From the NCBI GenBank assembly GCA_017440425.1, contig JAFSHJ010000072.1, positions 1 to 29,113 on the forward strand: a DNA stretch of 29,113 nt, read 5' to 3'. Shown piece after piece: positions 19,046 to 27,914 of the stretch. How positions within the stretch are numbered: the first letter of the stretch is position 1; every line of letters starts with the position of its first letter. Origin of the DNA: Oscillospiraceae bacterium. Its GTDB lineage: Bacteria; Bacillota; Clostridia; Oscillospirales; Ruminococcaceae. Both the position numbers and the translations under genes were made by a program. The notes under the pieces are model-generated. The model saw only the letters and a program-made list of their open reading frames with translations, did not search any database and had not been told where the DNA came from.

Positions 19046-19103
19046 CGGTTTGAATATCTCCCTCTTTTATTCGGTTAATTCCCTTTTATTTCCACTTTAG
19101 TTA

Positions 19104-19132
19104 TTGACACCGTGAAAGCATAATGTTATAAT
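19104..19132 (+). promoter_or_regulatory. Consensus sigma-A promoter
   Basis: TTGACA-17 nt-TATAAT with TG extension; GGAGG RBS at 19165-19169. Confidence 0.85.
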
Positions 19133-19176
19133 TCTAATATATACCTGCACACATTAACTATAATGGAGGATTACTT

Positions 19177-19773
19177 ATGAAAATCTGTCCCAACTGCAAT
19201 ACCAAACTCAATGATGAGAACATGTTCTGCACAAACTGCGGCGCAAACTGCAAAGAGGTTGAAATTCTCTCCGATGTAACAGAAAACGTATCCGTTGTTG
19301 AGGAAGCTCCCGTTGTTGAGGAAGCTCCCGTTGTTGAAGAGGCTCCCGTTGTTGAAGAGGCTCCCGTTGTTGAAGAAGCTCCCGTTGTTGAAGAAGCTCC
19401 CGTTGTTGAAGCTCCCGTTGTTGAAGCTCCCGTTGTTGAAGCTCCCGCTGCTGAAGCTCCCGCTGAAGATCCCGGCAAGACCCTCGGTCTCGTAGCTATG
19501 ATCCTCGGTATCGCATCCCTTGTTCTCTGCGTGGCTTGCTCCTGCTTCGGTCTCGGACTTTTCTCCGGCATCCCCGCAATCGCAGGCGTTATCTGCGGAT
19601 TCCTCGCCAACAAGAAATCCAAAGAAGTTGGCATCAAGAACAAAAAGGCATCCATCGGTCTCATTCTCTCCATCGTTGCCATTGTTCTCACCGTCGTATT
19701 CTATGTTGGACTTCTCCTTCTCGGCGGCGCAGCAGCTCTGTTCTCCGGTCTTGACAGCGGCTACTATTATTGA
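19177..19773 (+). CDS. Zinc-ribbon protein with acidic VVEEAP repeat linker and two C-terminal TM helices (DUF4190-like)
   Basis: MKICPNC...FCTNCG, repeat linker, [16 protein letters not shown]...GVICGFLA...[14 protein letters not shown]. Confidence 0.75.
19294..19473 (+). repeat. Coding tandem repeat: 6 x 18 bp (VVEEAP), 3 x 15 bp (VVEAP), then degenerate AAEAP and AEDP
   Basis: GTTGTTGAGGAAGCTCCC x2, GTTGTTGAAGAGGCTCCC x2, GTTGTTGAAGAAGCTCCC x2, GTTGTTGAAGCTCCC x3. Confidence 0.97.
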
Positions 19774-19792
19774 TTTTTAACCTGAACTGACG

Positions 19793-19838
19793 AGCACCCG
19801 AAAACGCCAAGACTTTTGGATGTTTTCGGGTGCTTTTT
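19793..19838 (+). terminator. Intrinsic terminator between the repeat gene and the DUF2752 gene
   Basis: 13-bp stem AGCACCCGAAAAC / GTTTTCGGGTGCT followed by TTTT. Confidence 0.75.
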
Positions 19839-19849
19839 ACAACACGATC

Positions 19850-20260
19850 ATGTTTGCTTTTTTTAAAAAATTTTCACCAAAAACCGTTTTGGTGGTGTGT
19901 GACCTACTGCTCATTCCCGCACTTATAGCCTGCGAGCGGTTGAGCGACCGTATGCTCGCAAAAAATGCCACCTGCCCCTGGAATTTTTTTGGCGGAAAAT
20001 GCATCACCTGCGGCGGCACACACTTTGTCAACTCTGTTTTGAATTTTAAATTTGCAGAAGCTTTCGGGCACAATCAATATCTTTTTGTGCTTGCTGTGTT
20101 TTTTGCGCTCTCTTTTCTGCTTTTGAATCTGCACAAGCTTTTCGGCATACAGTTCGCCAAAAGGGTGCTGCGGAAGATGTATAACATCCCCATGCTTATT
20201 GCGGGCTGCGTTTTGATGGTGCTTTTTGTCATTCTCCGCAACCTGCCGCTGTTTTTCTAA
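19850..20260 (+). CDS. DUF2752-like membrane protein
   Basis: TCPWNFFGGKCITCGGTHFVNSVLNFKFAEAFGHN resembles the DUF2752 CP...CPGCG.TR...A...N motif, flanked by TM helices. Start moved to ATG 19850 because 19820 lies inside the terminator stem. Confidence 0.65.
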   Translation: MFAFFKKFSPKTVLVVCDLLLIPALIACERLSDRMLAKNATCPWNFFGGKCITCGGTHFVNSVLNFKFAEAFGHNQYLFVLAVFFALSFLLLNLHKLFGIQFAKRVLRKMYNIPMLIAGCVLMVLFVILRNLPLFF

Positions 20261-20290
20261 ATGGAACATATATCGAATAACACTATATTC

Positions 20291-20332
20291 AAACCCCGCA
20301 TCTTGTGCAATGGCAAGGTGCGGGGTTATTTT
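20291..20332. terminator. Bidirectional terminator between convergent DUF2752 and YihY genes
   Basis: Stem AACCCCGCATCTTG / CAAGGTGCGGGGTT with A/T-rich flanks on both sides. Confidence 0.7.
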
Positions 20333-20352
20333 ATTGAAATCAGTTTTTTGTT

Positions 20353-21273
20353 TTAACGCTGCTCTGCCGGCTGCATTTTTTTGTGTTCTGAAACTTTTGT
20401 CATCTCTGCCCTCACGGCAATCAACGACGCGTTGAATTCTGCACCTAAAATGAGCAAAAAAGATGTCATATAGAGCCACACCAGCATGACAATAACTGTT
20501 CCCAGTGCTCCGTATATCACGGAATACTTTCCGAAATTTTCCACATACAGCGAAAAGCCAATGCTTATGATTATCCACGCCACCAATGAGAGGACAACAC
20601 CCGGCATAATGGATTTAACCGTGCATCGCTTATCCTGTGCAAATGTATAAAGCATAGCAATGGCGGAAAACATCAAAATGCTCAACAGGGCAAACCTCAG
20701 ATATTGCCAAAGGTTCAATGCGGCATCGGAAACCTGCAAAATCTGCTCTATTCCTAACCATTGAGCTGCACCCAAAATAAACTTTCTGCCAAAAACAGAC
20801 AAAATCAATGTCAACGCGATGACAACAAGAAAGATTACGGTCAAAAGCAGCTGTCTTAGGGCATAGACAATTGGTTTTTGTGGTCTGTCAAGGTTATATG
20901 CACGGCGGATATCCTCCATAAGGCTTCGGACTGCACGCAGAGGAAACCAGACACAGAAACCAAGCGAAAACCAAAACAACACTGTGCTGGAGGTGTTGCT
21001 CACATGGCTCAGATAAGCCTCCAGAAGATACACTACTTCGCTCGGCACAATCGGGCGTAGTGTTTCAGATATGTACGTTATATTCAGGTCCAGCAGACCC
21101 AGAAGATTGCTGACAAATATCATCAACGGAAACATGGCAAACACCAGATAATATGTCAATGCCGCGGCACCTTTTCCAACGCCGTGCTCTGCCGTATTTA
21201 TCGCCGTCCTGCGAATTGACCTTCTCAGCAATCCTTTTTTTAGCTGTTTCACCTGTGCCACCTCATTCACCAC
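20353..21273 (-). CDS. YihY/BrkB-family multi-pass membrane protein
   Basis: AAALTYYLVFAMFPLMI, PGVVLSLVAW, FSLYVENFGKYSVIYGALGTVIVMLVWLYMTSFLLILGAEFNA. Confidence 0.9.
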   Translation of the reverse strand: MVNEVAQVKQLKKGLLRRSIRRTAINTAEHGVGKGAAALTYYLVFAMFPLMIFVSNLLGLLDLNITYISETLRPIVPSEVVYLLEAYLSHVSNTSSTVLFWFSLGFCVWFPLRAVRSLMEDIRRAYNLDRPQKPIVYALRQLLLTVIFLVVIALTLILSVFGRKFILGAAQWLGIEQILQVSDAALNLWQYLRFALLSILMFSAIAMLYTFAQDKRCTVKSIMPGVVLSLVAWIIISIGFSLYVENFGKYSVIYGALGTVIVMLVWLYMTSFLLILGAEFNASLIAVRAEMTKVSEHKKMQPAEQR

Positions 21274-21306
21274 CCTCCAACAGTTGTCTTATAAAATTAT
21301 TTTAAA

Positions 21307-22179
21307 CTATCTTCCCTGTTTATTCAAGCCATATACCGCTCTGTATTCAGTTACATCTTGAATTGTTTCTCCGTCTATCTGCAGTGGTGTGGGTCTGTCA
21401 AATTCCACTCTGATATTCCGACCTGTGTGAACCGCCAACAACTTCTTTTTCTTCACATGGGTCCCCTTGAATAACTTTGGAAACACACATAGTGTGCGTA
21501 GTCTGCCTGCGCCGTGAAACACCACCAAGGAGAGTTTTTTCTCTTTATTCTCTCTGTTTTGATCCGGCGCCGCCATCATTCCGCCGCCATAATATCTTCC
21601 TAACATAGTCGGTGCAATCCACACCTTTTTATATGTATATTCTCTGCCGTCAACCGTGACTTTGGCGTTTCTCGGTTTAAAATGGAACAGCAGCCCCTTA
21701 ACCGCAACGGATGCATAATTGACCTTTTTTCTCTGCTTTTCTTTCAGCTTATCCCCCACCTGACAGCAATATCCGTCAATGCCAAAGCCTACGCCATTGA
21801 TAAAGTGGTATGTTTTTCCTTTTACTGTTACACTTGGCAGCTCTTTGAGATATTGTGTAACCGGGAAAGGATAGTTAAATACATTCTTCCCCACATCTCT
21901 TGCAAAATCGTTTCCGCTGCCTGTTGGAAAATAGTATATCTCCTGCTCTATACCGATGCCCGCAGTATCGTTGACAAAGCGATTAAGAGTTCCGTCCCCG
22001 CCCGCTATCACAAGATAGTCCTCTTTATCCATGCTGCCGATAAATGCGGCATAGTTTGTGATGTGGGTCATATCAAAATATTCCTGCTCATCGTCCATAA
22101 CTATCTCCAGCAGCCTTACATTTTCTTCGTTTTGGCCTTCTCCTGCCAGAGGATTATAAATAATATATGCTTTTGGCAT
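21307..22179 (-). CDS. Diacylglycerol kinase family lipid kinase (DgkB/YegS-like)
   Basis: IYNPLAG, AGGDGTLN, PTGSGNDFAR, FINGVGFGID, LQIDGE. Confidence 0.88.
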   Translation of the reverse strand: MPKAYIIYNPLAGEGQNEENVRLLEIVMDDEQEYFDMTHITNYAAFIGSMDKEDYLVIAGGDGTLNRFVNDTAGIGIEQEIYYFPTGSGNDFARDVGKNVFNYPFPVTQYLKELPSVTVKGKTYHFINGVGFGIDGYCCQVGDKLKEKQRKKVNYASVAVKGLLFHFKPRNAKVTVDGREYTYKKVWIAPTMLGRYYGGGMMAAPDQNRENKEKKLSLVVFHGAGRLRTLCVFPKLFKGTHVKKKKLLAVHTGRNIRVEFDRPTPLQIDGETIQDVTEYRAVYGLNKQGR

Positions 22180-22200
22180 TACACATCTCTCTTTTCCACA

Positions 22201-23334
22201 TTATTTACAACACTCTGCGCTCAAGCACCCATTACACATTATCTCGCAGATTTGCTCTGCTGCGTTTTTGTTTGGCAGCGCCTCCAACGCACTTTTCATC
22301 AGCGCAAGTTGTTTTTTATCACGCAGCAAATTCAGGCACAGCTGCGCCAAAGCTTCCGCACTCTCTGCTGTCACCGCACCGCCAATGTTGACAAAATAGT
22401 TCAGGTTATATTCTTCACAACCCGCTACCGCATCCACAAACACCATCGGCAACCGTTTTGCTGCCGCTTCCGTTGTGCTCAATCCGCCCGGCTTGGTCAG
22501 GTAAAGCTCTGCGCTGTCCATCATCACACCAATATTATCAACAAAGCCGTGAAGGTGGATGTTTGGTACATCTCCGAATGCTTCCTTTAGATTTTCAAGC
22601 AGTTTTTTGTTTGTGCCGCACACAATGGAAACCTCTATGGTGTCATCCATTCCTTTGCTCAGCAGTTTTGTCAGCTTTTCAATGGGACCACACCCCATGC
22701 TTCCACACATAATCATCAGATGACTATGCCCTGTGTGGATTCCCTGCATTTTTTTGGCTTCTGCCCGGTTGCCACACTTGTAAAACTCCTTTTTCACCGG
22801 TATTCCTACAGAGAATATCTTTTCTTCAGCCACACCCTGAGCAACAAATGTCTCCTTCAAGCTGTCATCCGGAATAAAACAGTAGTCCACTTCACTTGCG
22901 GCAACCCCCGGACTGCAGGTGTAATCTGTGGCAACAAAAGCCGTTTTCAGTTCAAGATGATATTCCAACACAGTCTGCCTGAGCAAAAAACCCGCAAAAA
23001 CATGGGCACATATGACAGTATCGTAATCGCCCTGCTCTATATAGTTATACAGCTGCTTAGTGCCGTCGCTCAACAGCTTATAGACAGCTGTGTCATCCCC
23101 CAGCACCGCAGGATGTTTTTCCGCAAAGCCATAGCCCGCACGGAAAAGCCCCGGAATATGGCGATACATCGTAGTGTGTCCCCATGACACAAATTTGGAC
23201 AGTTTATCTGACACAAATCCCAGCGAATCCGCAATATCACAGGTGTGTCCCCGCTCTTCAAAAGCCACCTTTATTGCATCAGCGCAGGAATTATGACCTC
23301 CGCCTGTGTTACAGCTTAATATCAAAGCTTTCAT
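22201..23334 (-). CDS. GT28 diacylglycerol glycosyltransferase (UgtP/MGDG synthase family)
   Basis: LSCNTGGGHNSCA, VATDY, SVGIPV, MCGSMG, TKPGGLSTTEA, GCEEYN. Confidence 0.88.
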   Translation of the reverse strand: MKALILSCNTGGGHNSCADAIKVAFEERGHTCDIADSLGFVSDKLSKFVSWGHTTMYRHIPGLFRAGYGFAEKHPAVLGDDTAVYKLLSDGTKQLYNYIEQGDYDTVICAHVFAGFLLRQTVLEYHLELKTAFVATDYTCSPGVAASEVDYCFIPDDSLKETFVAQGVAEEKIFSVGIPVKKEFYKCGNRAEAKKMQGIHTGHSHLMIMCGSMGCGPIEKLTKLLSKGMDDTIEVSIVCGTNKKLLENLKEAFGDVPNIHLHGFVDNIGVMMDSAELYLTKPGGLSTTEAAAKRLPMVFVDAVAGCEEYNLNYFVNIGGAVTAESAEALAQLCLNLLRDKKQLALMKSALEALPNKNAAEQICEIMCNGCLSAECCK

Positions 23335-23807
23335 ATATCTCCTTCTTTCTTCACCGACAGCTGCCGCTGTAAACGAATTAACCGAGGTCTGTTATACCTT
23401 TGAATCAGTATATACGGCAGATTTAAAAACAAGATGTTGATGACTGCTACAGTTATTCCTCCCATGCCTGGCCAAATACACACACAGTAACCCCCAAAGA
23501 TGCTGATGGCAATGTGTATAACCTCTGCCACACAGGTCTCATCAATCATAACCTGCAACCGCTCTTTGTAATTTCCCTTCAGGTTTTTGGCAGGCATCCA
23601 GAAAGGCAGAATACGGCTCATATCCAACACCTTGTTCTGCCATCTGCGGATTTTCAATTTCCCGTATATTTTACCGTCTTTTTCAAAACTAAAACTGCTA
23701 AACAACCCTTTTTGCGGATTCAGCCATTGTCTTGGTATAATTCTGCCTGCAAAAAAACCAATTATCCCTGTAATTGACAAATATATTGCACATTTCAGTA
23801 GCTTCAT
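23331..23807 (-). CDS. CrtO-like (glycosyl-4,4'-diaponeurosporenoate acyltransferase family) membrane protein
   Basis: GKIYGKLKIRRWQNKV, ETCVAEVIH, NLPYILIQRYNRPRL resemble the CrtO family signature. 4-nt overlap with the glycosyltransferase gene. Confidence 0.72.
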   Translation of the reverse strand: MKLLKCAIYLSITGIIGFFAGRIIPRQWLNPQKGLFSSFSFEKDGKIYGKLKIRRWQNKVLDMSRILPFWMPAKNLKGNYKERLQVMIDETCVAEVIHIAISIFGGYCVCIWPGMGGITVAVINILFLNLPYILIQRYNRPRLIRLQRQLSVKKEGDI

Positions 23808-23823
23808 TTGTCTCTCTCCAAAA

Positions 23824-24546
23824 TCAGTTGGTGACTTTTGTGTTTCTGTTATCTCTGATCAGGCTATGTCTTCCCCTGTTCAAAAGCAATATTATGCAGG
23901 TTATCAGCGCACCGAGGCTTTCCATCATCATATCCAACATACTGTCTATCAGTCCGATGTCGATGTAACCATTTACCGGCAGCGGTATGCCGTCCACAGT
24001 CACCGACTGAATGTTTTCCAGACTTCCTCTCACACCAATTCCCTCATCCAGCAGATAGGATGTGATTCCGTTTATTACCGTATCGTCCTGCATATCCATT
24101 CCAAGGAATTGGTCGGCACCAAACTCTGCAAACTCCCAAAATGCGGCAATTGTCACAGAAAAGCACAGCGCAAAAACAGCAGTTGCAAAAAAACTATTTT
24201 TTTGTTTCACCATTAGCTCAAAAAAGTATGCCCCAACAATGGCAAACATCACCCCTCCGCAGATGTGCAGCAGCTTATCCCACCAACTAATGGTGTAATA
24301 GAAATTCCAGCACTGTCCCATCATTGGCCCCACGGCATACAGCAGCGCAAAAACATAAAACGGTAGGGAAAGCTTACATTTGAAGATGCGCTCCATTACT
24401 TCAGGCAGAAGCACTATCAGCAGCGTTGCAAAGGCAAGCGGAAGTCGCTCATACCGCTTTGCTGCAAAAAGGAATATCACCGTGCCCACTGCAAGCAGCT
24501 CACCCAAAACAATACCTGTGTATCTTATTATTTTATACTCTTTCAT
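23824..24546 (-). CDS. Multi-pass membrane protein, DUF2238/YjdF-like
   Basis: Several TM helices with polar motifs WWDKLLH..GG, FWEFAEF and DSMLDM. Confidence 0.55.
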   Translation of the reverse strand: MKEYKIIRYTGIVLGELLAVGTVIFLFAAKRYERLPLAFATLLIVLLPEVMERIFKCKLSLPFYVFALLYAVGPMMGQCWNFYYTISWWDKLLHICGGVMFAIVGAYFFELMVKQKNSFFATAVFALCFSVTIAAFWEFAEFGADQFLGMDMQDDTVINGITSYLLDEGIGVRGSLENIQSVTVDGIPLPVNGYIDIGLIDSMLDMMMESLGALITCIILLLNRGRHSLIRDNRNTKVTN

Positions 24547-25105
24547 CGCTCTTCTCCCCGTTCAACAGGATACTCAGGTTTCTGATGCCATAGCCAATGG
24601 CAGACACCAACACCATTGCTGTGCAAATTCCAACCAAAGTCCATGACACAGCAGAGGGAATATTAAACCAAAGAATGTGAATTATTATCATGCTGTAAAG
24701 ACATACCGTTGCGGCCTTGCCGTGCCAAACCGCCCCCAGCACAACCCCTGTTTTGCGTATTATGAGCAAACCCGTTACTGCAGCAAATATCTCCTTCACC
24801 ACAAGAAGGATGAGCGGAACCAACAGCTCAGGAAACCTTGTGATAAGGCAGAGCAACGTTGCCATCTGCGTCAGCTTGTCTGCCACGGGGTCAAACGCCT
24901 TTCCAAAATCGCTTATCATATTGAATTTGCGCGCAATAAAGCCATCCACAACATCGGTTATTCCCGAGATAACCAAAATTACAGCTGTCCAAAGATAATC
25001 CTGCTTGTAAACATATAGCCACACGATCATTGGCACAAGCAACAGCCTGAATATGGACAACACATTTGGAATGGTCATTATCCTGTGCTTATACTTGTCT
25101 TCCAT
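24533..25105 (-). CDS. CDP-alcohol phosphatidyltransferase (PgsA-like)
   Basis: TIPNVLSIFRL and signature TDVVDGFIARKFNMISDFGKAFDPVADK (DxxDGxxAR...GxxxDxxxD). Confidence 0.92.
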   Translation of the reverse strand: MEDKYKHRIMTIPNVLSIFRLLLVPMIVWLYVYKQDYLWTAVILVISGITDVVDGFIARKFNMISDFGKAFDPVADKLTQMATLLCLITRFPELLVPLILLVVKEIFAAVTGLLIIRKTGVVLGAVWHGKAATVCLYSMIIIHILWFNIPSAVSWTLVGICTAMVLVSAIGYGIRNLSILLNGEKSDERV

Positions 25106-25139
25106 ACTTTTTTAGCCTCCAGCTCCATTTTACAAAACC

Positions 25140-25177
25140 AGTATAAAATGTGAGTTTCAACCGAACATAAATTCAAC
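25140..25177 (-). promoter_or_regulatory. Lipid-operon promoter with candidate OmpR-family direct-repeat operator
   Basis: TATACT -10 (25145-25140) with no good -35. GTTGAATTT-AT-GTTCGGTTG (25177-25158), 11-bp period, covers the -35 region. Confidence 0.5.
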
Positions 25178-25191
25178 CTCAATTTTTGTTG

Positions 25192-25243
25192 AAAAAACGG
25201 CATCTGCCATAAAAGCAGATGCCGTTTGGGCGGTTTCACCGCC
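25192..25243 (-). terminator. Double hairpin / intrinsic terminator after the sensor kinase
   Basis: GGCGG-TGAAA-CCGCC, then a perfect 13-bp stem AAACGGCATCTGC / GCAGATGCCGTTT continuing into a U tract. Confidence 0.8.
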
Positions 25244-25253
25244 TTTAGCTATG

Positions 25254-26306
25254 TTATTTTGTCTGAAGCGTAACTGTAAATTTACTGCCGCCCGATGGCA
25301 GGTTTTCTGCGGCTATCTCACCCTTTTCAATGGTTAGAATGCGTTTGACCAAGGCAAGTCCAAGACCGTTGCCCTCCTGCCTGTGGCGGCTGCTGTCCTG
25401 ATAGAATTTATCAAAAATATGGTTGAGCGACTCTTCTGTAAGTCCCGGACCATTGTCTTCTATTGTGAAGACCAGCTTTTTTGATTTCTGCGTCAGCCGC
25501 AGCTTCACTGTGCCTCCATCCGGACTGAATTTGATGGCGTTTGAGATCAGATTGTCCCACACATGGTGCATCATTGTTTCGTTTCCCAAATAGTTTATTC
25601 TCTCCAACTCCACATCAAATTCGATGTTTTTCTTCTCCCACGCAGATTCCTGCACCACAATCGACTGCCTGATCTGCTCATCAAGACGATAATTTGTGCG
25701 GTTGGTTGGTATCTGTTGGTTTTCCAGCTTGCTAAGCAACAAAATGCTCCCCACCAAAGATGAAAGCCGCCCTGTATTGAGCAAAATTTTCTCAACATAT
25801 TTTTCCTGCTCTTCATTCAGGTTGTCGCTGTCCTGAAGCAATGTGGAATATCCCTCAATTGCATTTATCGGCGTTTTGAACTCATGAGAGACATTGGAAA
25901 CAAAATCTGTCTGTAAAATTTCGGTTGAGCTGAGCTCGTTTGCCATTAGATTGAAGCCGGTGTATATCTCCATTATCTCTTTTGAGCTTGATTTTTCATT
26001 CAATCTTACTGAGAAATCCCCGTCTGCAACCCTATCCATTGCTTTACGAAGCTTTTTTATTGGGTTGAAAAAATATTTTGACAACTGACCTGTAACCAGA
26101 ATTCCAACCAACAGACATACCAATATCATCTCCAGTTCCAATGGAATTTCCCACGGAAACACTTTGTTAAAGAGAATATCCAAACCATAGGAGATCACCA
26201 CGCAGACAAGCATTTCCATTGTCACCAGCAAGGTCAATCGTGTCCGAAGGCTGAAACGATTCCGTTGCTCGTTTCTCACCTTTTCAAAGCGTTCTCTTGT
26301 GTTCAC
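25254..26306 (-). CDS. Sensor histidine kinase (2 TM, minimal extracellular loop, HAMP, HisKA, HATPase)
   Basis: H-box DFVSNVSHEFKTP, N-box VWDNLISNAIKFS, G1 DNGPG, F-box IFDKFYQ, G2 GNGLGLA. Confidence 0.95.
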   Translation of the reverse strand: MNTRERFEKVRNEQRNRFSLRTRLTLLVTMEMLVCVVISYGLDILFNKVFPWEIPLELEMILVCLLVGILVTGQLSKYFFNPIKKLRKAMDRVADGDFSVRLNEKSSSKEIMEIYTGFNLMANELSSTEILQTDFVSNVSHEFKTPINAIEGYSTLLQDSDNLNEEQEKYVEKILLNTGRLSSLVGSILLLSKLENQQIPTNRTNYRLDEQIRQSIVVQESAWEKKNIEFDVELERINYLGNETMMHHVWDNLISNAIKFSPDGGTVKLRLTQKSKKLVFTIEDNGPGLTEESLNHIFDKFYQDSSRHRQEGNGLGLALVKRILTIEKGEIAAENLPSGGSKFTVTLQTK

Positions 26307-26974
26307 AGCTTCACCACCTTATAGCCAACACCGCGAATGGTGACAATTTTGAAATCCTTACTGTCACGAAAGCGCTCCCTCAGTCTGCCGATGTGCACAT
26401 CCACCGTGTGTGTATCACTATCGGAATCGTATCCCCAAATTTCATCCATCAACTGCTGACGGGTGGAAATTTTGCCCGGAAATGCCGCCATTTTATAAAG
26501 CAGCATAAACTCCTTTTGCGGAAGCACCATACTCTCTCCTCCGGTGATTACTGTCAGAGAATCACACTCCAAAAGAGTGTTTCCAATGGTCAGCCGTCTG
26601 TCGTTTATCATCTGTGCACGGCGCAGCAATGCCTGCACCCGCAGCACCATCTCATTCACGTTGATGGGTTTAACCATATAATCATCCACACCCGATTGGA
26701 AACCGATTCGCATATCATCAAAGGCATCCTTTGCGGTGATCATCAGCACAGGTGTGTTGCTTCCCGCCTCTCGAAGCTGCCGCACAAGCTCATAGCCATC
26801 CATCACCGGCATCATAATATCGGAGATGATCATATCATAAAACTCTGCATCCAAAGCCTCCAGTGCCTCCTGTCCGTTGGAAACACCCACAACCGTATAT
26901 CCGTTACGACTGAGAACATGTGAAAACAACTGCCGAAGCTCTCTGTCATCTTCCGCAATAAGAATTTTCAGCAT
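26303..26974 (-). CDS. OmpR/PhoB-family response regulator (HssR-like)
   Basis: ILIAEDD, ISDIMMPVMDG, ITAK, DDYMVKP, winged helix EIWGYD...TVDVHIGRLR...TIRGVGYK. 4-nt overlap with the kinase gene. Confidence 0.95.
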   Translation of the reverse strand: MLKILIAEDDRELRQLFSHVLSRNGYTVVGVSNGQEALEALDAEFYDMIISDIMMPVMDGYELVRQLREAGSNTPVLMITAKDAFDDMRIGFQSGVDDYMVKPINVNEMVLRVQALLRRAQMINDRRLTIGNTLLECDSLTVITGGESMVLPQKEFMLLYKMAAFPGKISTRQQLMDEIWGYDSDSDTHTVDVHIGRLRERFRDSKDFKIVTIRGVGYKVVKL

Positions 26975-27005
26975 AGTAAAACCTCCTGAAAGAGCATATT
27001 ACATC

Positions 27006-27041
27006 ATTATAATAGCACTGTTTTATCAACAAAACTTCAAC
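27006..27041 (-). promoter_or_regulatory. Two-component operon promoter with the same direct-repeat motif
   Basis: TATAAT (27011-27006) with GTTGAAGTT-TT-GTTGATAAA (27041-27022) over the -35 region. Confidence 0.5.
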
Positions 27042-27072
27042 AATCATCCGTCTTTGCTGTAAAATTTCTGCA

Positions 27073-27100
27073 AATAAAAAACCGCCTGACGGCGGTTTTG
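27073..27100 (-). terminator. Intrinsic terminator after the XRE gene
   Basis: AAAACCGCC-GTCA-GGCGGTTTT followed by TTATTT. Confidence 0.75.
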
Positions 27101-27135
27101 AAAAAAGATGCAATTTTTCTGTTTGCTGATGAATT

Positions 27136-27747
27136 TTATTCTTTGCTGATAACCTTTTTCTGCCAGGATCTTTTGCCGCAGGCGGGACATTTCATATATC
27201 TTGTTCTGCCCATATGCATTGCCCAAAAAACATTGCCGTATTTGGGAACATATTTGTGACCGCACTCCTTACACACATAGTATCCTGCTTTCTGCTCAAT
27301 TTTTAATGCGAAGGGTGTGGCAATAAGCAGCGGAATGATCCCTGCAAGAACGATGACGGTTTCCATCCACTCCTCAAGTGATATAACATTCACCAGACAC
27401 ACCGCAGCCAGCAACGGAAGCAGGCACACAACGCACATAACAATTTCTATTGTAAGCAGCCTTTTGTCTGCCTGCTCTTTTTGTCTGACCATCTCGATCA
27501 GGTTAGTTTCCAATTCTCTGTTGTAGTTTTCCATTGTAACTACCTCCCCACTTAATAAATCGTTTACGGTAATTTTAAGGATACCGCAAAGCTCAAGCAT
27601 AATTGAGGAATCCGGCATTGCTTTGCCCGTTTCCCATTTGGATATCGCTCTGTCGGTGATACCCAGCATTTCTGCCAGCTGCAGCTGCGTTAGACCTGCA
27701 TTTTTTCTGCGCTCGGCAATGAATCTTCCAATTTTAATCTGATCCAT
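27136..27747 (-). CDS. XRE-family HTH regulator with two TM helices and a C-terminal C4 zinc finger
   Basis: MDQIKIGRFIAERRK..GLTQ.QLAE.LGITDRAISKWETG..PD, two hydrophobic helices, then CKECG...CPACG. Confidence 0.88.
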   Translation of the reverse strand: MDQIKIGRFIAERRKNAGLTQLQLAEMLGITDRAISKWETGKAMPDSSIMLELCGILKITVNDLLSGEVVTMENYNRELETNLIEMVRQKEQADKRLLTIEIVMCVVCLLPLLAAVCLVNVISLEEWMETVIVLAGIIPLLIATPFALKIEQKAGYYVCKECGHKYVPKYGNVFWAMHMGRTRYMKCPACGKRSWQKKVISKE

Positions 27748-27868
27748 CGGCTTCCTCCTTTCGCTTTAAGTATAGAGCATATTTCAGGTAAAATACACAC
27801 ACCAAGGGTTGAGTGGGGAGAAAACAACCATTGGTAGAGTTAAAATTGCCGTTGATTTGTTGTTTTGT

Positions 27869-27914
27869 AAAAAAGAAACACCTTCTGCCCACCGGACAAA
27901 AGGTGTTTCTTTTT
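27869..27914 (-). terminator. Terminator abutting the tRNA 3' end
   Basis: 15-bp inverted repeat AAAAAGAAACACCTT / AAGGTGTTTCTTTTT. Confidence 0.75.

What the first reader, a model, noticed from the sequence alone, without database searches (positions are those of the whole stretch)
20353..25105. Six-gene membrane-lipid operon: candidate pathway for an undescribed acylated glycolipid
Seen: CDP-alcohol phosphotransferase, DUF2238-like protein, CrtO-like acyltransferase, UgtP/MGDG synthase, DAG-kinase-family protein and YihY are co-oriented, with overlaps or gaps of at most 33 bp. A terminator lies upstream and another downstream. Established: UgtP/MGDG synthases glycosylate diacylglycerol; CrtO acylates the sugar of a glucosylated carotenoid in Staphylococcus staphyloxanthin synthesis; DgkB recycles DAG to phosphatidic acid; in C. 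difficile a two-component-controlled glycosyltransferase/tailoring-enzyme/flippase operon (HexRK-HexSDF) makes a glycolipid that confers daptomycin resistance. Inference: an analogous but chemically different module that makes glycosyl-DAG, acylates the sugar (CrtO-like), may add a phospho-headgroup (CDP-alcohol enzyme), balances DAG/PA and exports or flips the product (YihY). I know of no description of this gene combination.
Basis: partly seen in the sequence, partly recalled or inferred. Interest (0 to 1): 0.85.

Follow-up and report, generated by a model that had tools for sequence, protein, structure and literature searches.

The report
Sensor-controlled glycolipid remodelling operon

Summary
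The six minus-strand genes exist as described: CDP-alcohol phosphatidyltransferase, DUF2238-like, CrtO-like, GT28/MGDG-synthase-like, BmrU/YegS-type lipid kinase and YihY. Spacing and flanking terminators also match.

The functional unit differs from the one proposed. An OmpR-type regulator and an intramembrane-sensing kinase lie directly upstream. A 38-nt TTGA-repeat operator sits between the kinase terminator and the operon. It is conserved without gaps in 28 of 30 orthologous loci and is unique in this 2-Mb genome (43.9 bits against 17.3 for the runner-up).

Among 39 related loci with full context:
- GT28 follows CrtO-like in 36.
- The sensor pair is present in 18 and PAP2 in 21.
- DUF2238 and the kinase are each present in 9, and CDP-OH in 7.
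- YihY is present in none.

CrtO-linked GT28s form their own clade. The CDP-OH enzyme and the kinase are accessory paralogues of housekeeping PgsA and DgkB. No carotenoid genes were found.

Most likely this is an envelope-stress regulon that makes a sugar-acylated glycosyl-diacylglycerol. The product is inferred, not shown. A YihY export role is unsupported.

No paper in the searched library describes the module. This scan had already flagged it in other genomes (e1-5232429, e1-2156354, e1-2158939).

The parts
27078..27099 (-). Intrinsic terminator that isolates the two-component genes from the upstream HTH gene
   Evidence: 9-bp stem with 5 G-C pairs and a T-run.
27006..27041 (-). Regulator-gene promoter: GTTGAA and GTTGAT direct repeats 11 bp apart (27041-27036 and 27030-27025), then a TATAAT -10 (27011-27006). 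Probable autoregulation.
   Evidence: Read from the sequence. Comparable GTTGA repeats stand upstream of the orthologous regulator genes. The operator matrix scores 24-44 bits there in many loci.
26303..26974 (-). OmpR/PhoB-type response regulator
   Evidence: Response_reg plus Trans_reg_C. It is 75-90% identical to the regulators beside CrtO-GT28 modules in other genomes.
25254..26306 (-). Intramembrane-sensing histidine kinase: two TM helices joined by about 9 residues, then HAMP, HisKA and HATPase_c
   Evidence: Pfam, translation, orthologues at 49-80% identity.
25192..25225 (-). Intrinsic terminator after the kinase gene (11-bp perfect stem, 7-nt loop, T6)
   Evidence: Sequence. A hairpin plus T-run is present at the same place in the orthologous loci.
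25155..25192 (-). 38-nt operator: a TCAAC half-site followed by three TTGA-type direct repeats at 10-11-bp spacing. It takes the place of a -35 element.
   Evidence: Gap-free conservation in 28 of 30 loci. A matrix built without the window scores 43.9 bits here, against 17.3 for the next best site in the genome. It also recurs upstream of the operon in loci not used for training.
25140..25145 (-). -10 hexamer TATACT of the lipid operon
   Evidence: Aligned with the conserved TAnAnT column.
24533..25105 (-). Accessory PgsA/Cls-like CDP-alcohol phosphatidyltransferase; acceptor unknown
   Evidence: PF01066 at 118.8 bits. The full DxxDGxxAR..G..D..D motif is visible in the alignment to S. aureus PgsA 7DRJ. 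It is below the PgsA equivalog cut-off (84.9 against 109.1). The housekeeping pgsA lies elsewhere, on C296, at 161 bits.
23824..24546 (-). DUF2238-family polytopic membrane protein with invariant acidic and His residues (D90, H94, E138, E141, D145, D151, D155, D196, D201, D205); function unknown
   Evidence: No solved structure matches.
23331..23807 (-). CrtO-family membrane O-acyltransferase homologue; a core gene
   Evidence: PF18927 at 100.1 bits. The model has pLDDT 80.6. Foldseek's top hits are S. aureus CrtO, at TM 0.70-0.74 and 31-33% identity over the full length.
22201..23334 (-). UgtP/MGDG-synthase-type GT28 lipid glycosyltransferase of a CrtO-linked clade; a core gene. Its start overlaps the CrtO-like stop by 4 nt.
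   Evidence: Pfam. Best solved relatives are processive DAG beta-glucosyltransferase 9wde and MGD1 4wyi. GxGH His14 and Glu289 are invariant. The clade has 100/96 support.
21307..22179 (-). Accessory BmrU/YegS-type lipid kinase
   Evidence: DAGK_cat plus YegS_C. The GGDGT and GSGNDF motifs are visible in the alignment. It is below the family cut-off (81.3 against 118.65). A better DgkB-like gene lies on C114.
20353..21273 (-). YihY/BrkB-family membrane protein. It is probably co-transcribed here but is not a conserved member of the module.
   Evidence: PF03631 at 171 bits. Found in 0 of 80 related loci. Not found in same-genus genomes. A promoter-like site lies at 21327-21299.
20292..20327 (.). 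Bidirectional intrinsic terminator shared with the convergent DUF2752 gene
   Evidence: 15-bp stem with 8 G-C pairs.

Best explanation
This is a sensor-controlled membrane-lipid remodelling regulon.

Proposed control: an intramembrane-sensing histidine kinase phosphorylates an OmpR-type regulator. The regulator binds TTGA-type direct repeats that replace the -35 element, both at its own promoter and at the promoter just behind the kinase terminator. That switches on the lipid operon.

Proposed chemistry: the conserved core is a specialised UgtP/MGDG-synthase-type GT28 enzyme, which puts a hexose on diacylglycerol or on an existing glycolipid. A translationally coupled CrtO-type membrane acyltransferase then esterifies a fatty acid onto that sugar. 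The product would be a neutral, three-chain acyl-glycosyl-diacylglycerol that changes membrane charge and packing under envelope stress.

Add-ons in this genome: the core is extended by recurrent but optional accessory paralogues, namely a PgsA/Cls-like phosphatidyltransferase, a DUF2238 membrane protein and a BmrU/YegS-type lipid kinase. These probably feed or further decorate the lipid pool. YihY is a lineage-specific tail gene.

Shown: the gene identities, the conserved core, the conserved operator, the accessory-paralogue status and the absence of carotenoid genes.
Inferred: regulator binding, the inducing signal, the substrates and the product.
For: - Family assignments.
- GT28 lies directly downstream of CrtO-like in 68 of 80 loci and 36 of 39 full-context loci. 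The orthologous regulator (75-90% identity) and kinase are upstream in 18 of 39.
- The operator is conserved gap-free in 28 of 30 loci and unique in the genome (43.9 against 17.3 bits). It also stands upstream of the operon in more than 20 loci not used to build the matrix, and upstream of regulator genes.
- CrtO-linked GT28s form one clade with 100/96 support. In four genomes this clade is separate from other PF06925 paralogues of the same genome.
- CrtO-family genes pair with three glycosyltransferase families: GT28 here, GT8 plus PlsC on contig C288 and in 5 other genomes, and GT2 plus a desaturase in a carotenoid-type cluster.
- No CrtM and no real CrtN were found in the genome.
- Housekeeping pgsA and a dgkB-like gene lie elsewhere.
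- The precedent for a sensor-controlled glycolipid operon is HexRK-HexSDF (PMC10128005).
Against: - No lipid product, enzyme activity or regulator binding has been measured for any member.
- CrtO's acyl donor and mechanism are unknown even in Staphylococcus.
- The acceptor of the CrtO-linked GT28 is undetermined, and in several genomes it coexists with another UgtP-like enzyme.
- The genome is an 80%-complete MAG, so absences are provisional.
- The roles of CDP-OH, DUF2238 and the kinase are guesses.
- Expression evidence is only low-depth contigs from one metatranscriptome, which could be DNA carry-over.
Confidence: 0.6

Rival explanations
1. One reading: all six genes form one dedicated pathway. 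It makes glycosyl-DAG, acylates the sugar, adds a phospho-headgroup through the CDP-alcohol enzyme, balances DAG and PA through the kinase, and exports or flips the product through YihY.
For: The six genes are co-oriented and tightly spaced between two terminators. CDP-OH, DUF2238 and the kinase recur beside the core in a subset of loci. The CDP-OH enzyme and the kinase are accessory paralogues rather than the housekeeping copies.
Against: YihY is in 0 of 80 related loci and was not found in same-genus genomes. A promoter-like site precedes it. CDP-OH is in 7, DUF2238 in 9 and the kinase in 9 of 39 full-context loci, in varying combinations, so none is needed for the core chemistry. No YihY/BrkB-family member is known to be a lipid flippase (my own knowledge).
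Confidence: 0.12
2. The GT28 and CrtO pair does not start from diacylglycerol. It decorates an existing glycolipid or lipoteichoic-acid anchor by adding a second sugar and then an acyl group, as HexS adds to monohexosyl-DAG.
For: CrtO-linked GT28s are a clade apart from other UgtP-like paralogues and coexist with them in at least four genomes. HexS, also of the MGDG-synthase type, needs UgtA-made monohexosyl lipid (PMC11898633).
Against: In this genome it is the only PF06925 gene found, though the assembly is 80% complete. Its nearest solved relatives act on DAG itself.
Confidence: 0.2
3. There is no special product. The regulon simply raises the output of ordinary lipids (PG or cardiolipin, PA, monoglycosyl-DAG) through extra paralogues under stress. 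The CrtO-like protein would have a non-acyltransferase or unrelated membrane role.
For: The accessory genes are paralogues of general lipid enzymes. Module content varies between genomes and includes PAP2, PlsC, DegV and RelA_SpoT.
Against: The near-invariant, translationally coupled CrtO-GT28 pairing and the separate GT28 clade argue for a dedicated joint function. CrtO-family genes pair with glycosyltransferases of three different families.
Confidence: 0.1

Closest known systems
HexRK-HexSDF of Clostridioides difficile (PMC10128005, PMC11898633)
   Same: An OmpR-type two-component system sits next to, and is required for, a small operon headed by an MGDG-synthase-type glycosyltransferase plus a tailoring enzyme. 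The product is a modified membrane glycolipid that protects against membrane-active antibiotics.
   Different: The tailoring enzyme here is a CrtO-type acyltransferase, not a polysaccharide deacetylase. There is no MprF-like flippase. The predicted product is acylated rather than an amino-sugar lipid. Orthology of the sensor pair to HexRK/YrkPQ could not be tested.
CrtQ/CrtO steps of staphyloxanthin synthesis (Staphylococcus aureus crtOPQMN)
   Same: A glycosyltransferase is followed by a CrtO-family membrane acyltransferase that esterifies the newly added sugar. The window protein is a full-length homologue of CrtO, at 31-33% identity and TM 0.70-0.74.
   Different: The partner is GT28, not GT2. 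No CrtM or CrtN was found in the genome, so the acceptor is presumably a glycerolipid rather than a C30 carotenoid.
UgtP/YpfP processive diacylglycerol glucosyltransferase and plant MGD1 (GT28)
   Same: The same two-domain fold family, with conserved GxGH histidine and C-terminal Glu. These are the best solved relatives.
   Different: It scores far below the equivalog cut-off (143.6 against 500 bits) and belongs to a separate CrtO-linked clade. The sugar and the acceptor are unknown.
GT8 plus PlsC-like plus CrtO-like cassette of gut Clostridia (uncharacterised; contig C288 of this genome)
   Same: It follows the same logic of a glycosyltransferase coupled to a CrtO-family protein, and it is conserved across genomes.
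   Different: It uses a different glycosyltransferase family and always includes a PlsC-type acyltransferase. No operator for this sensor was found there.

Membership tests
CrtO family (PF18927, glycosyl-4,4'-diaponeurosporenoate acyltransferase) | Sequence match above Pfam's gathering score | tested here: met
   100.1 bits against a cut-off of 27.3.
CrtO family (PF18927, glycosyl-4,4'-diaponeurosporenoate acyltransferase) | Same fold as the characterised S. aureus CrtO over the full length | tested here: met
   Foldseek TM 0.70-0.74 and 31-33% identity across residues 1-155. Both structures are predictions.
CrtO family (PF18927, glycosyl-4,4'-diaponeurosporenoate acyltransferase) | Carotenoid pathway context (crtM, crtN/P, crtQ) | tested here: not met
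   No SQS_PSY hit, and only trivial Amino_oxidase hits, in the 80%-complete genome. No such genes are in the window.
CrtO family (PF18927, glycosyl-4,4'-diaponeurosporenoate acyltransferase) | Sugar O-acyltransferase activity | not testable with these tools
   This needs lipid analysis of expression strains.
UgtP / MGDG-synthase GT28 lipid glycosyltransferases | MGDG_synth N-domain plus GT28 C-domain above the cut-offs | tested here: met
   60.9 bits (cut-off 25) and 34.9 bits (cut-off 22).
UgtP / MGDG-synthase GT28 lipid glycosyltransferases | Conserved GxGH histidine and C-terminal glutamate | tested here: met
   G11, G13, H14 and E289 are invariant in 17 CrtO-linked sequences. Equating them with catalytic residues rests on my knowledge of MGD1 and MurG.
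UgtP / MGDG-synthase GT28 lipid glycosyltransferases | Equivalog of diglucosyl-DAG synthase | tested here: not met
   PRK13609 scores 143.6 bits against a cut-off of 500. The protein is in a separate clade from other PF06925 paralogues.
PgsA (CDP-DAG:glycerol-3-phosphate phosphatidyltransferase) | CDP-alcohol phosphotransferase motif | tested here: met
   D-x2-DG-x2-AR-x8-G-x3-D-x3-D is visible in the alignment to 7DRJ.
PgsA (CDP-DAG:glycerol-3-phosphate phosphatidyltransferase) | Equivalog score | tested here: not met
   TIGR00560 scores 84.9 against a cut-off of 109.1. The C296 copy beside a RimO/MiaB-type radical-SAM gene scores 161.2 and is the housekeeping gene.
DgkB / YegS / BmrU lipid kinases | DAGK_cat plus YegS_C domains with GGDGT and GxGNDF motifs | tested here: met
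DgkB / YegS / BmrU lipid kinases | Family-level NCBIfam score | tested here: not met
   TIGR00147 scores 81.3 against a cut-off of 118.65. The C114 paralogue scores 187.3.
HexRK-HexSDF-type sensor-controlled glycolipid system | Adjacent OmpR-type two-component system and an MGDG-synthase-type glycosyltransferase operon | tested here: met
HexRK-HexSDF-type sensor-controlled glycolipid system | HexD-type deacetylase and HexF MprF-like flippase | tested here: not met
   Neither domain is in the operon.
HexRK-HexSDF-type sensor-controlled glycolipid system | Operon expression depends on the regulator | tested here: inconclusive
   The conserved, genome-unique operator argues for dependence. No binding or expression data exist.
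YihY/BrkB as a member of this module | Conserved co-occurrence with the CrtO-GT28 core | tested here: not met
   0 of 80 loci. Not found in the two same-genus genomes.
DUF2238 | Pfam gathering score | tested here: not met
   19.5 bits against a cut-off of 26.4. Language-model features (0.98 to DUF2238 clusters) and AlphaFold DB fold matches (TM 0.55-0.68) still place it in or next to the family.

The most novel reading that the evidence does not exclude
CrtO-family proteins may be the general, so far unassigned, sugar O-acyltransferases of Gram-positive membrane glycolipids. They would work with whichever lipid glycosyltransferase they are coupled to (GT2, GT28 or GT8). On that reading, this regulon is an inducible defence that swaps in a three-chain acyl-glycolipid when an intramembrane sensor detects membrane damage in the gut, for example from bile salts or antimicrobial peptides. 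In genomes like this one, the linked PgsA/Cls-like enzyme could further phosphatidylate the glycolipid. That would identify the unknown synthase of phosphatidyl-glycolipids.
Probability: 0.35. Interest if true: 0.75.

Novelty: new variant of a known kind. Interest (0 to 1): 0.55.

Why it matters
Acylated and phosphatidylated glycosyl-diacylglycerols have long been known chemically in Gram-positive bacteria, including as lipoteichoic-acid anchors. To my knowledge, no bacterial gene for the sugar-acylation step has been assigned.

The module offers a compact, testable candidate: two core genes plus a defined sensor and operator. It is spread patchily through abundant but mostly uncultured gut Clostridia. 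CrtO relatives were found in 386 species genomes, and about 4% of an even sample of the order carry the GT28-linked form.

Such lipids shape membrane charge, tolerance of antibiotics and bile, and possibly host immune recognition. The conserved operator also gives a ready handle for finding the inducing signal.

Tried and rejected
- Complex prediction of GT28 with the CrtO-like protein gave no verdict (score 0.00, controls not run). It counts neither for nor against binding.
- Foldseek of the DUF2238 model against the PDB found nothing (best E 2.6).
- Literature searches for CrtO-like or CrtO-homologue proteins with glycolipids, and for acylated bacterial glycolipid enzymes, found no description of this module. 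A search for the origin of the NCBIfam 'ClsA' CDP-alcohol model was uninformative.
- Metatranscriptome contigs lie on parts of the operon with 0-3 differences, but at depth 3-4 and without strand information. They are too weak to show transcription or co-transcription with YihY.
- Orthology of the sensor pair to HexRK or B. subtilis YrkPQ could not be tested, because no tool gave me those sequences.
- A carotenoid role was rejected: no crtM or crtN was found.
- I asked whether the operon's CDP-OH gene is the genome's pgsA. It is not.
- I asked whether PAP2 and CDP-OH are mutually exclusive alternatives. They are not, because they co-occur in several loci.


Full report
**Observation**

The window has six co-oriented minus-strand ORFs at exactly the stated coordinates. 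Pfam names them as follows:
- CDP-OH_P_transf, 24533-25105, 118.8 bits.
- A weak DUF2238 match, 23824-24546, 19.5 bits, below the gathering score.
- CrtO PF18927, 23331-23807, 100.1 bits.
- MGDG_synth plus Glyco_tran_28_C, 22201-23334.
- DAGK_cat plus YegS_C, 21307-22179.
- BrkB/YihY, 20353-21273, 171 bits.

The junctions are a 14-nt overlap, a 16-nt gap, a 4-nt overlap, a 21-nt gap and a 33-nt gap. An 11-bp-stem terminator with a T-run lies at 25225-25192, upstream of the first gene. A 15-bp bidirectional terminator lies at 20292-20327, after the last gene.

The finding left out two genes directly upstream on the same strand. One is an OmpR-type response regulator (26303-26974). The other is a HAMP histidine kinase (25254-26306) whose two transmembrane helices are joined by about nine residues, which marks it as an intramembrane sensor. 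A terminator at 27099-27078 precedes them.

**What is conserved**

A pattern scan of one genome per species found 386 genomes that encode relatives of the CrtO-like protein. The 80 best are almost all gut or rumen MAGs labelled Oscillospiraceae, Faecousia, Acutalibacteraceae, Ruminococcus or simply Clostridia.

I laid the window's eight proteins on these loci by tblastn. I then restricted the count to the 39 loci with at least 4 kb upstream and 5 kb downstream:

| Neighbour of the CrtO-like gene | Loci (of 39) |
|---|---|
| GT28 (immediately downstream, same strand) | 36 |
| PAP2 phosphatase/phosphotransferase | 21 |
| Regulator plus kinase | 18 |
| DegV | 10 |
| DUF2238-like | 9 |
| Lipid kinase | 9 |
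| CDP-OH enzyme | 7 |
| PlsC-like acyltransferase | 3 |
| RelA_SpoT alarmone synthetase | 2 |
| YihY | 0 |

- Across all 80 loci, GT28 follows the CrtO-like gene in 68 and YihY appears in none.
- The regulators are 75-90% identical to the window's, and the kinases 49-80%.
- Where the PlsC-like gene was called in the ORF maps, the kinase gene followed it.
- Two metagenome contigs read through the look-up of encoding contigs show the same pattern with precomputed Pfam labels.

The conserved unit is therefore the CrtO-like gene plus GT28, very often under this sensor pair, with a changeable set of lipid-enzyme add-ons. The exact six-gene set was not seen elsewhere.

**The regulatory link**

In 28 of 30 loci with the orthologous sensor pair, the stretch after the kinase gene aligns without a single gap. 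It holds a terminator hairpin and T-run, then TCAACAA-n3-TTGA-n7-TTGA-n7-GTTG-n-A, then a TAnAnT -10 about 13 nt further on. This holds whichever gene comes first in the operon: CDP-OH, RelA_SpoT, DUF2238 or the CrtO-like gene itself.

- A position matrix built without the window's own sequence scores 43.9 bits at window 25192-25155. The next best site in the whole 2.04-Mb assembly scores 17.3.
- Across 1.14 Mb of related loci, sites above 20 bits fall in three places. Some lie about 80-140 nt upstream of the CrtO-like gene or the first operon gene, including more than 20 loci not used for training and several with no adjacent sensor genes. Some lie upstream of regulator genes. A few lie in front of a downstream PlsC-kinase sub-module.
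- The window's own regulator promoter has two GTTGA repeats 11 bp apart, just upstream of a TATAAT.

Direct repeats at helical spacing that replace a -35 are the usual architecture of OmpR/PhoB-activated promoters (established knowledge). Binding itself is inferred.

**The proteins**

- **CrtO-like protein.** It is a full-length homologue of S. aureus CrtO. The model has pLDDT 80.6. Foldseek gives TM 0.70-0.74 and 31-33% identity.
- **GT28.** Its nearest solved relatives are processive DAG beta-glucosyltransferase (9wde) and plant MGD1. The GxGH histidine and a C-terminal Glu are invariant in 17 CrtO-linked sequences. It scores far below the diglucosyl-DAG synthase equivalog cut-off. In a maximum-likelihood tree, all 14 sampled CrtO-linked GT28s form one clade with 100/96 support. 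Within four genomes that clade is distinct from the other PF06925 paralogue.
- **GT28 and CrtO frequency in the order.** About half the genomes in an even sample of the order carry some PF06925 gene, and about a fifth carry a CrtO-family gene. By comparing coordinates in the two tables, only about 8 of 201 have the two adjacent.
- **CDP-OH enzyme.** It has the complete catalytic motif but is below the PgsA cut-off. The genome's housekeeping pgsA sits beside a RimO/MiaB-type radical-SAM gene on contig C296, and a further paralogue lies on C88.
- **Lipid kinase.** It keeps the GGDGT and GSGNDF motifs. A much better DgkB-like gene lies on C114. Both enzymes are therefore dedicated extra copies.
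- **DUF2238-like protein.** It has a striking set of invariant acidic and histidine residues but no solved or annotated relative beyond DUF2238 and remote VanZ-like models.
- **Carotenoid genes.** No CrtM and no real CrtN were found in the genome.

**CrtO-family genes pair with glycosyltransferases in general**

- The same genome has a second CrtO-family gene on contig C288, in a GtrA, GT8, PlsC-like, CrtO-like operon. The GT8-PlsC-CrtO triad recurs in five other genomes.
- Two genomes of the order have an Amino_oxidase, GT2, CrtO arrangement that looks like a true staphyloxanthin-type cluster.
- Other CrtO-family genes are orphans.

This pattern fits a family whose job is to acylate the sugar installed by a neighbouring lipid glycosyltransferase.

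**YihY and the genomic setting**

- YihY has no counterpart in any related locus and no match in the two same-genus genomes. Its best hit among 30 relatives is 31% identical.
- A sigma-70-like site (TTGAAT, 17 nt, TAAAAT) overlaps the end of the kinase gene just upstream of YihY.
- In a same-genus genome the flanks are syntenic: the zinc-ribbon proteins on one side and the ZIP transporter on the other. Window positions of about 19.1-27.9 kb are replaced there by three unrelated genes.
- G+C is somewhat lower across the module, at 0.43-0.46 against about 0.50 in the first 11 kb.
- Other genomes of the window's own family lack a real CrtO match.

The module therefore sits in a variable region and was probably acquired laterally. 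Whether YihY arrived with it cannot be told.

**Interpretation**

The best reading is an envelope-stress regulon whose core makes a sugar-acylated glycosyl-diacylglycerol. In this genome it has extra paralogues that feed or decorate the lipid pool.

- The closest characterised system in logic is HexRK-HexSDF of C. difficile (PMC10128005; PMC11898633).
- The closest in chemistry is the CrtQ/CrtO pair of staphyloxanthin synthesis.
- The product, the acceptor (DAG or a pre-made glycolipid), the sugar, the acyl donor and the signal are all inferred.
The idea that YihY exports the product is not supported.

**Prior knowledge**

Full-text searches found no paper linking CrtO-family proteins to GT28 glycolipid synthesis.

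This scan had already flagged the same module on other DNA:
- e1-5232429 is a DegV, CrtO-like, GT28, PAP2 cluster with its own sensor. A follow-up agent read it much as I do.
- e1-2156354 and e1-2158939 report the same core.
- e1-1204355 and e1-1529342 report the GT8 variant.

These notes are not independent evidence. My counts, operator analysis and tree were made here.

**Weak or null results**

- The complex prediction gave no verdict.
- Metatranscriptome contigs match parts of the operon nearly perfectly but at very low depth.

Noticed in passing
G000 contig C288 (L089:592-3635, minus strand): A second CrtO-family gene in the same genome sits in a GtrA, GT8, PlsC-like acyltransferase, CrtO-like operon. 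The GT8-PlsC-CrtO triad recurs in five other genomes of the order (L105, L106, L107, L111, L112).
   Followed up: partly
L108:2174-5366 and L109:1491-4718: Two genomes of this anaerobic order carry an Amino_oxidase (CrtN/P-like), GT2, CrtO arrangement. It looks like a genuine staphyloxanthin-type C30 carotenoid glycoside-ester cluster.
   Followed up: no
window 19100-27900 compared with L127 (G202:C45:38500-50500): The whole block from the zinc-ribbon/DUF4190 gene to the HTH gene, which includes the lipid regulon, is replaced by three unrelated genes in a same-genus genome with conserved flanks. The block is a variable region with slightly lower G+C.
   Followed up: partly
L042 about 6460, L023 about 1988, L024 about 3073: In some related clusters a second copy of the operator lies inside the cluster, about 1.6-4 kb downstream of the CrtO-like gene. 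In L042 it stands just ahead of the kinase gene. This suggests two regulator-dependent transcription units.
   Followed up: no
window 21299-21327 (minus strand): A sigma-70-like promoter match (TTGAAT, 17 nt, TAAAAT) overlaps the 3' end of the lipid-kinase gene just before YihY. The listed GTG start of YihY abuts its GGAGG, so the true start may be the next in-frame GTG at 21270.
   Followed up: no
window 25110-25135 and the aligned positions in related loci: A short conserved element (AATGGA/ATGGAAC) lies about 10-15 nt downstream of the -10 in the operon leader of many loci. Its role is unknown; it could mark the transcription start region or a leader signal.
   Followed up: no
L015:8628-9335 and five other related loci: In six related modules a small RelA_SpoT-type alarmone synthetase gene lies close to the lipid genes. 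In L015 it sits directly downstream of the operator, which hints at a link between this sensor and (p)ppGpp signalling.
   Followed up: no
G000 contig C88 (L090:4846-5442, minus strand): A third PgsA/Cls-like CDP-alcohol phosphatidyltransferase paralogue, 39% identical to the operon's copy, lies beside CvpA-like and DUF5711 genes. Its function is unknown.
   Followed up: no
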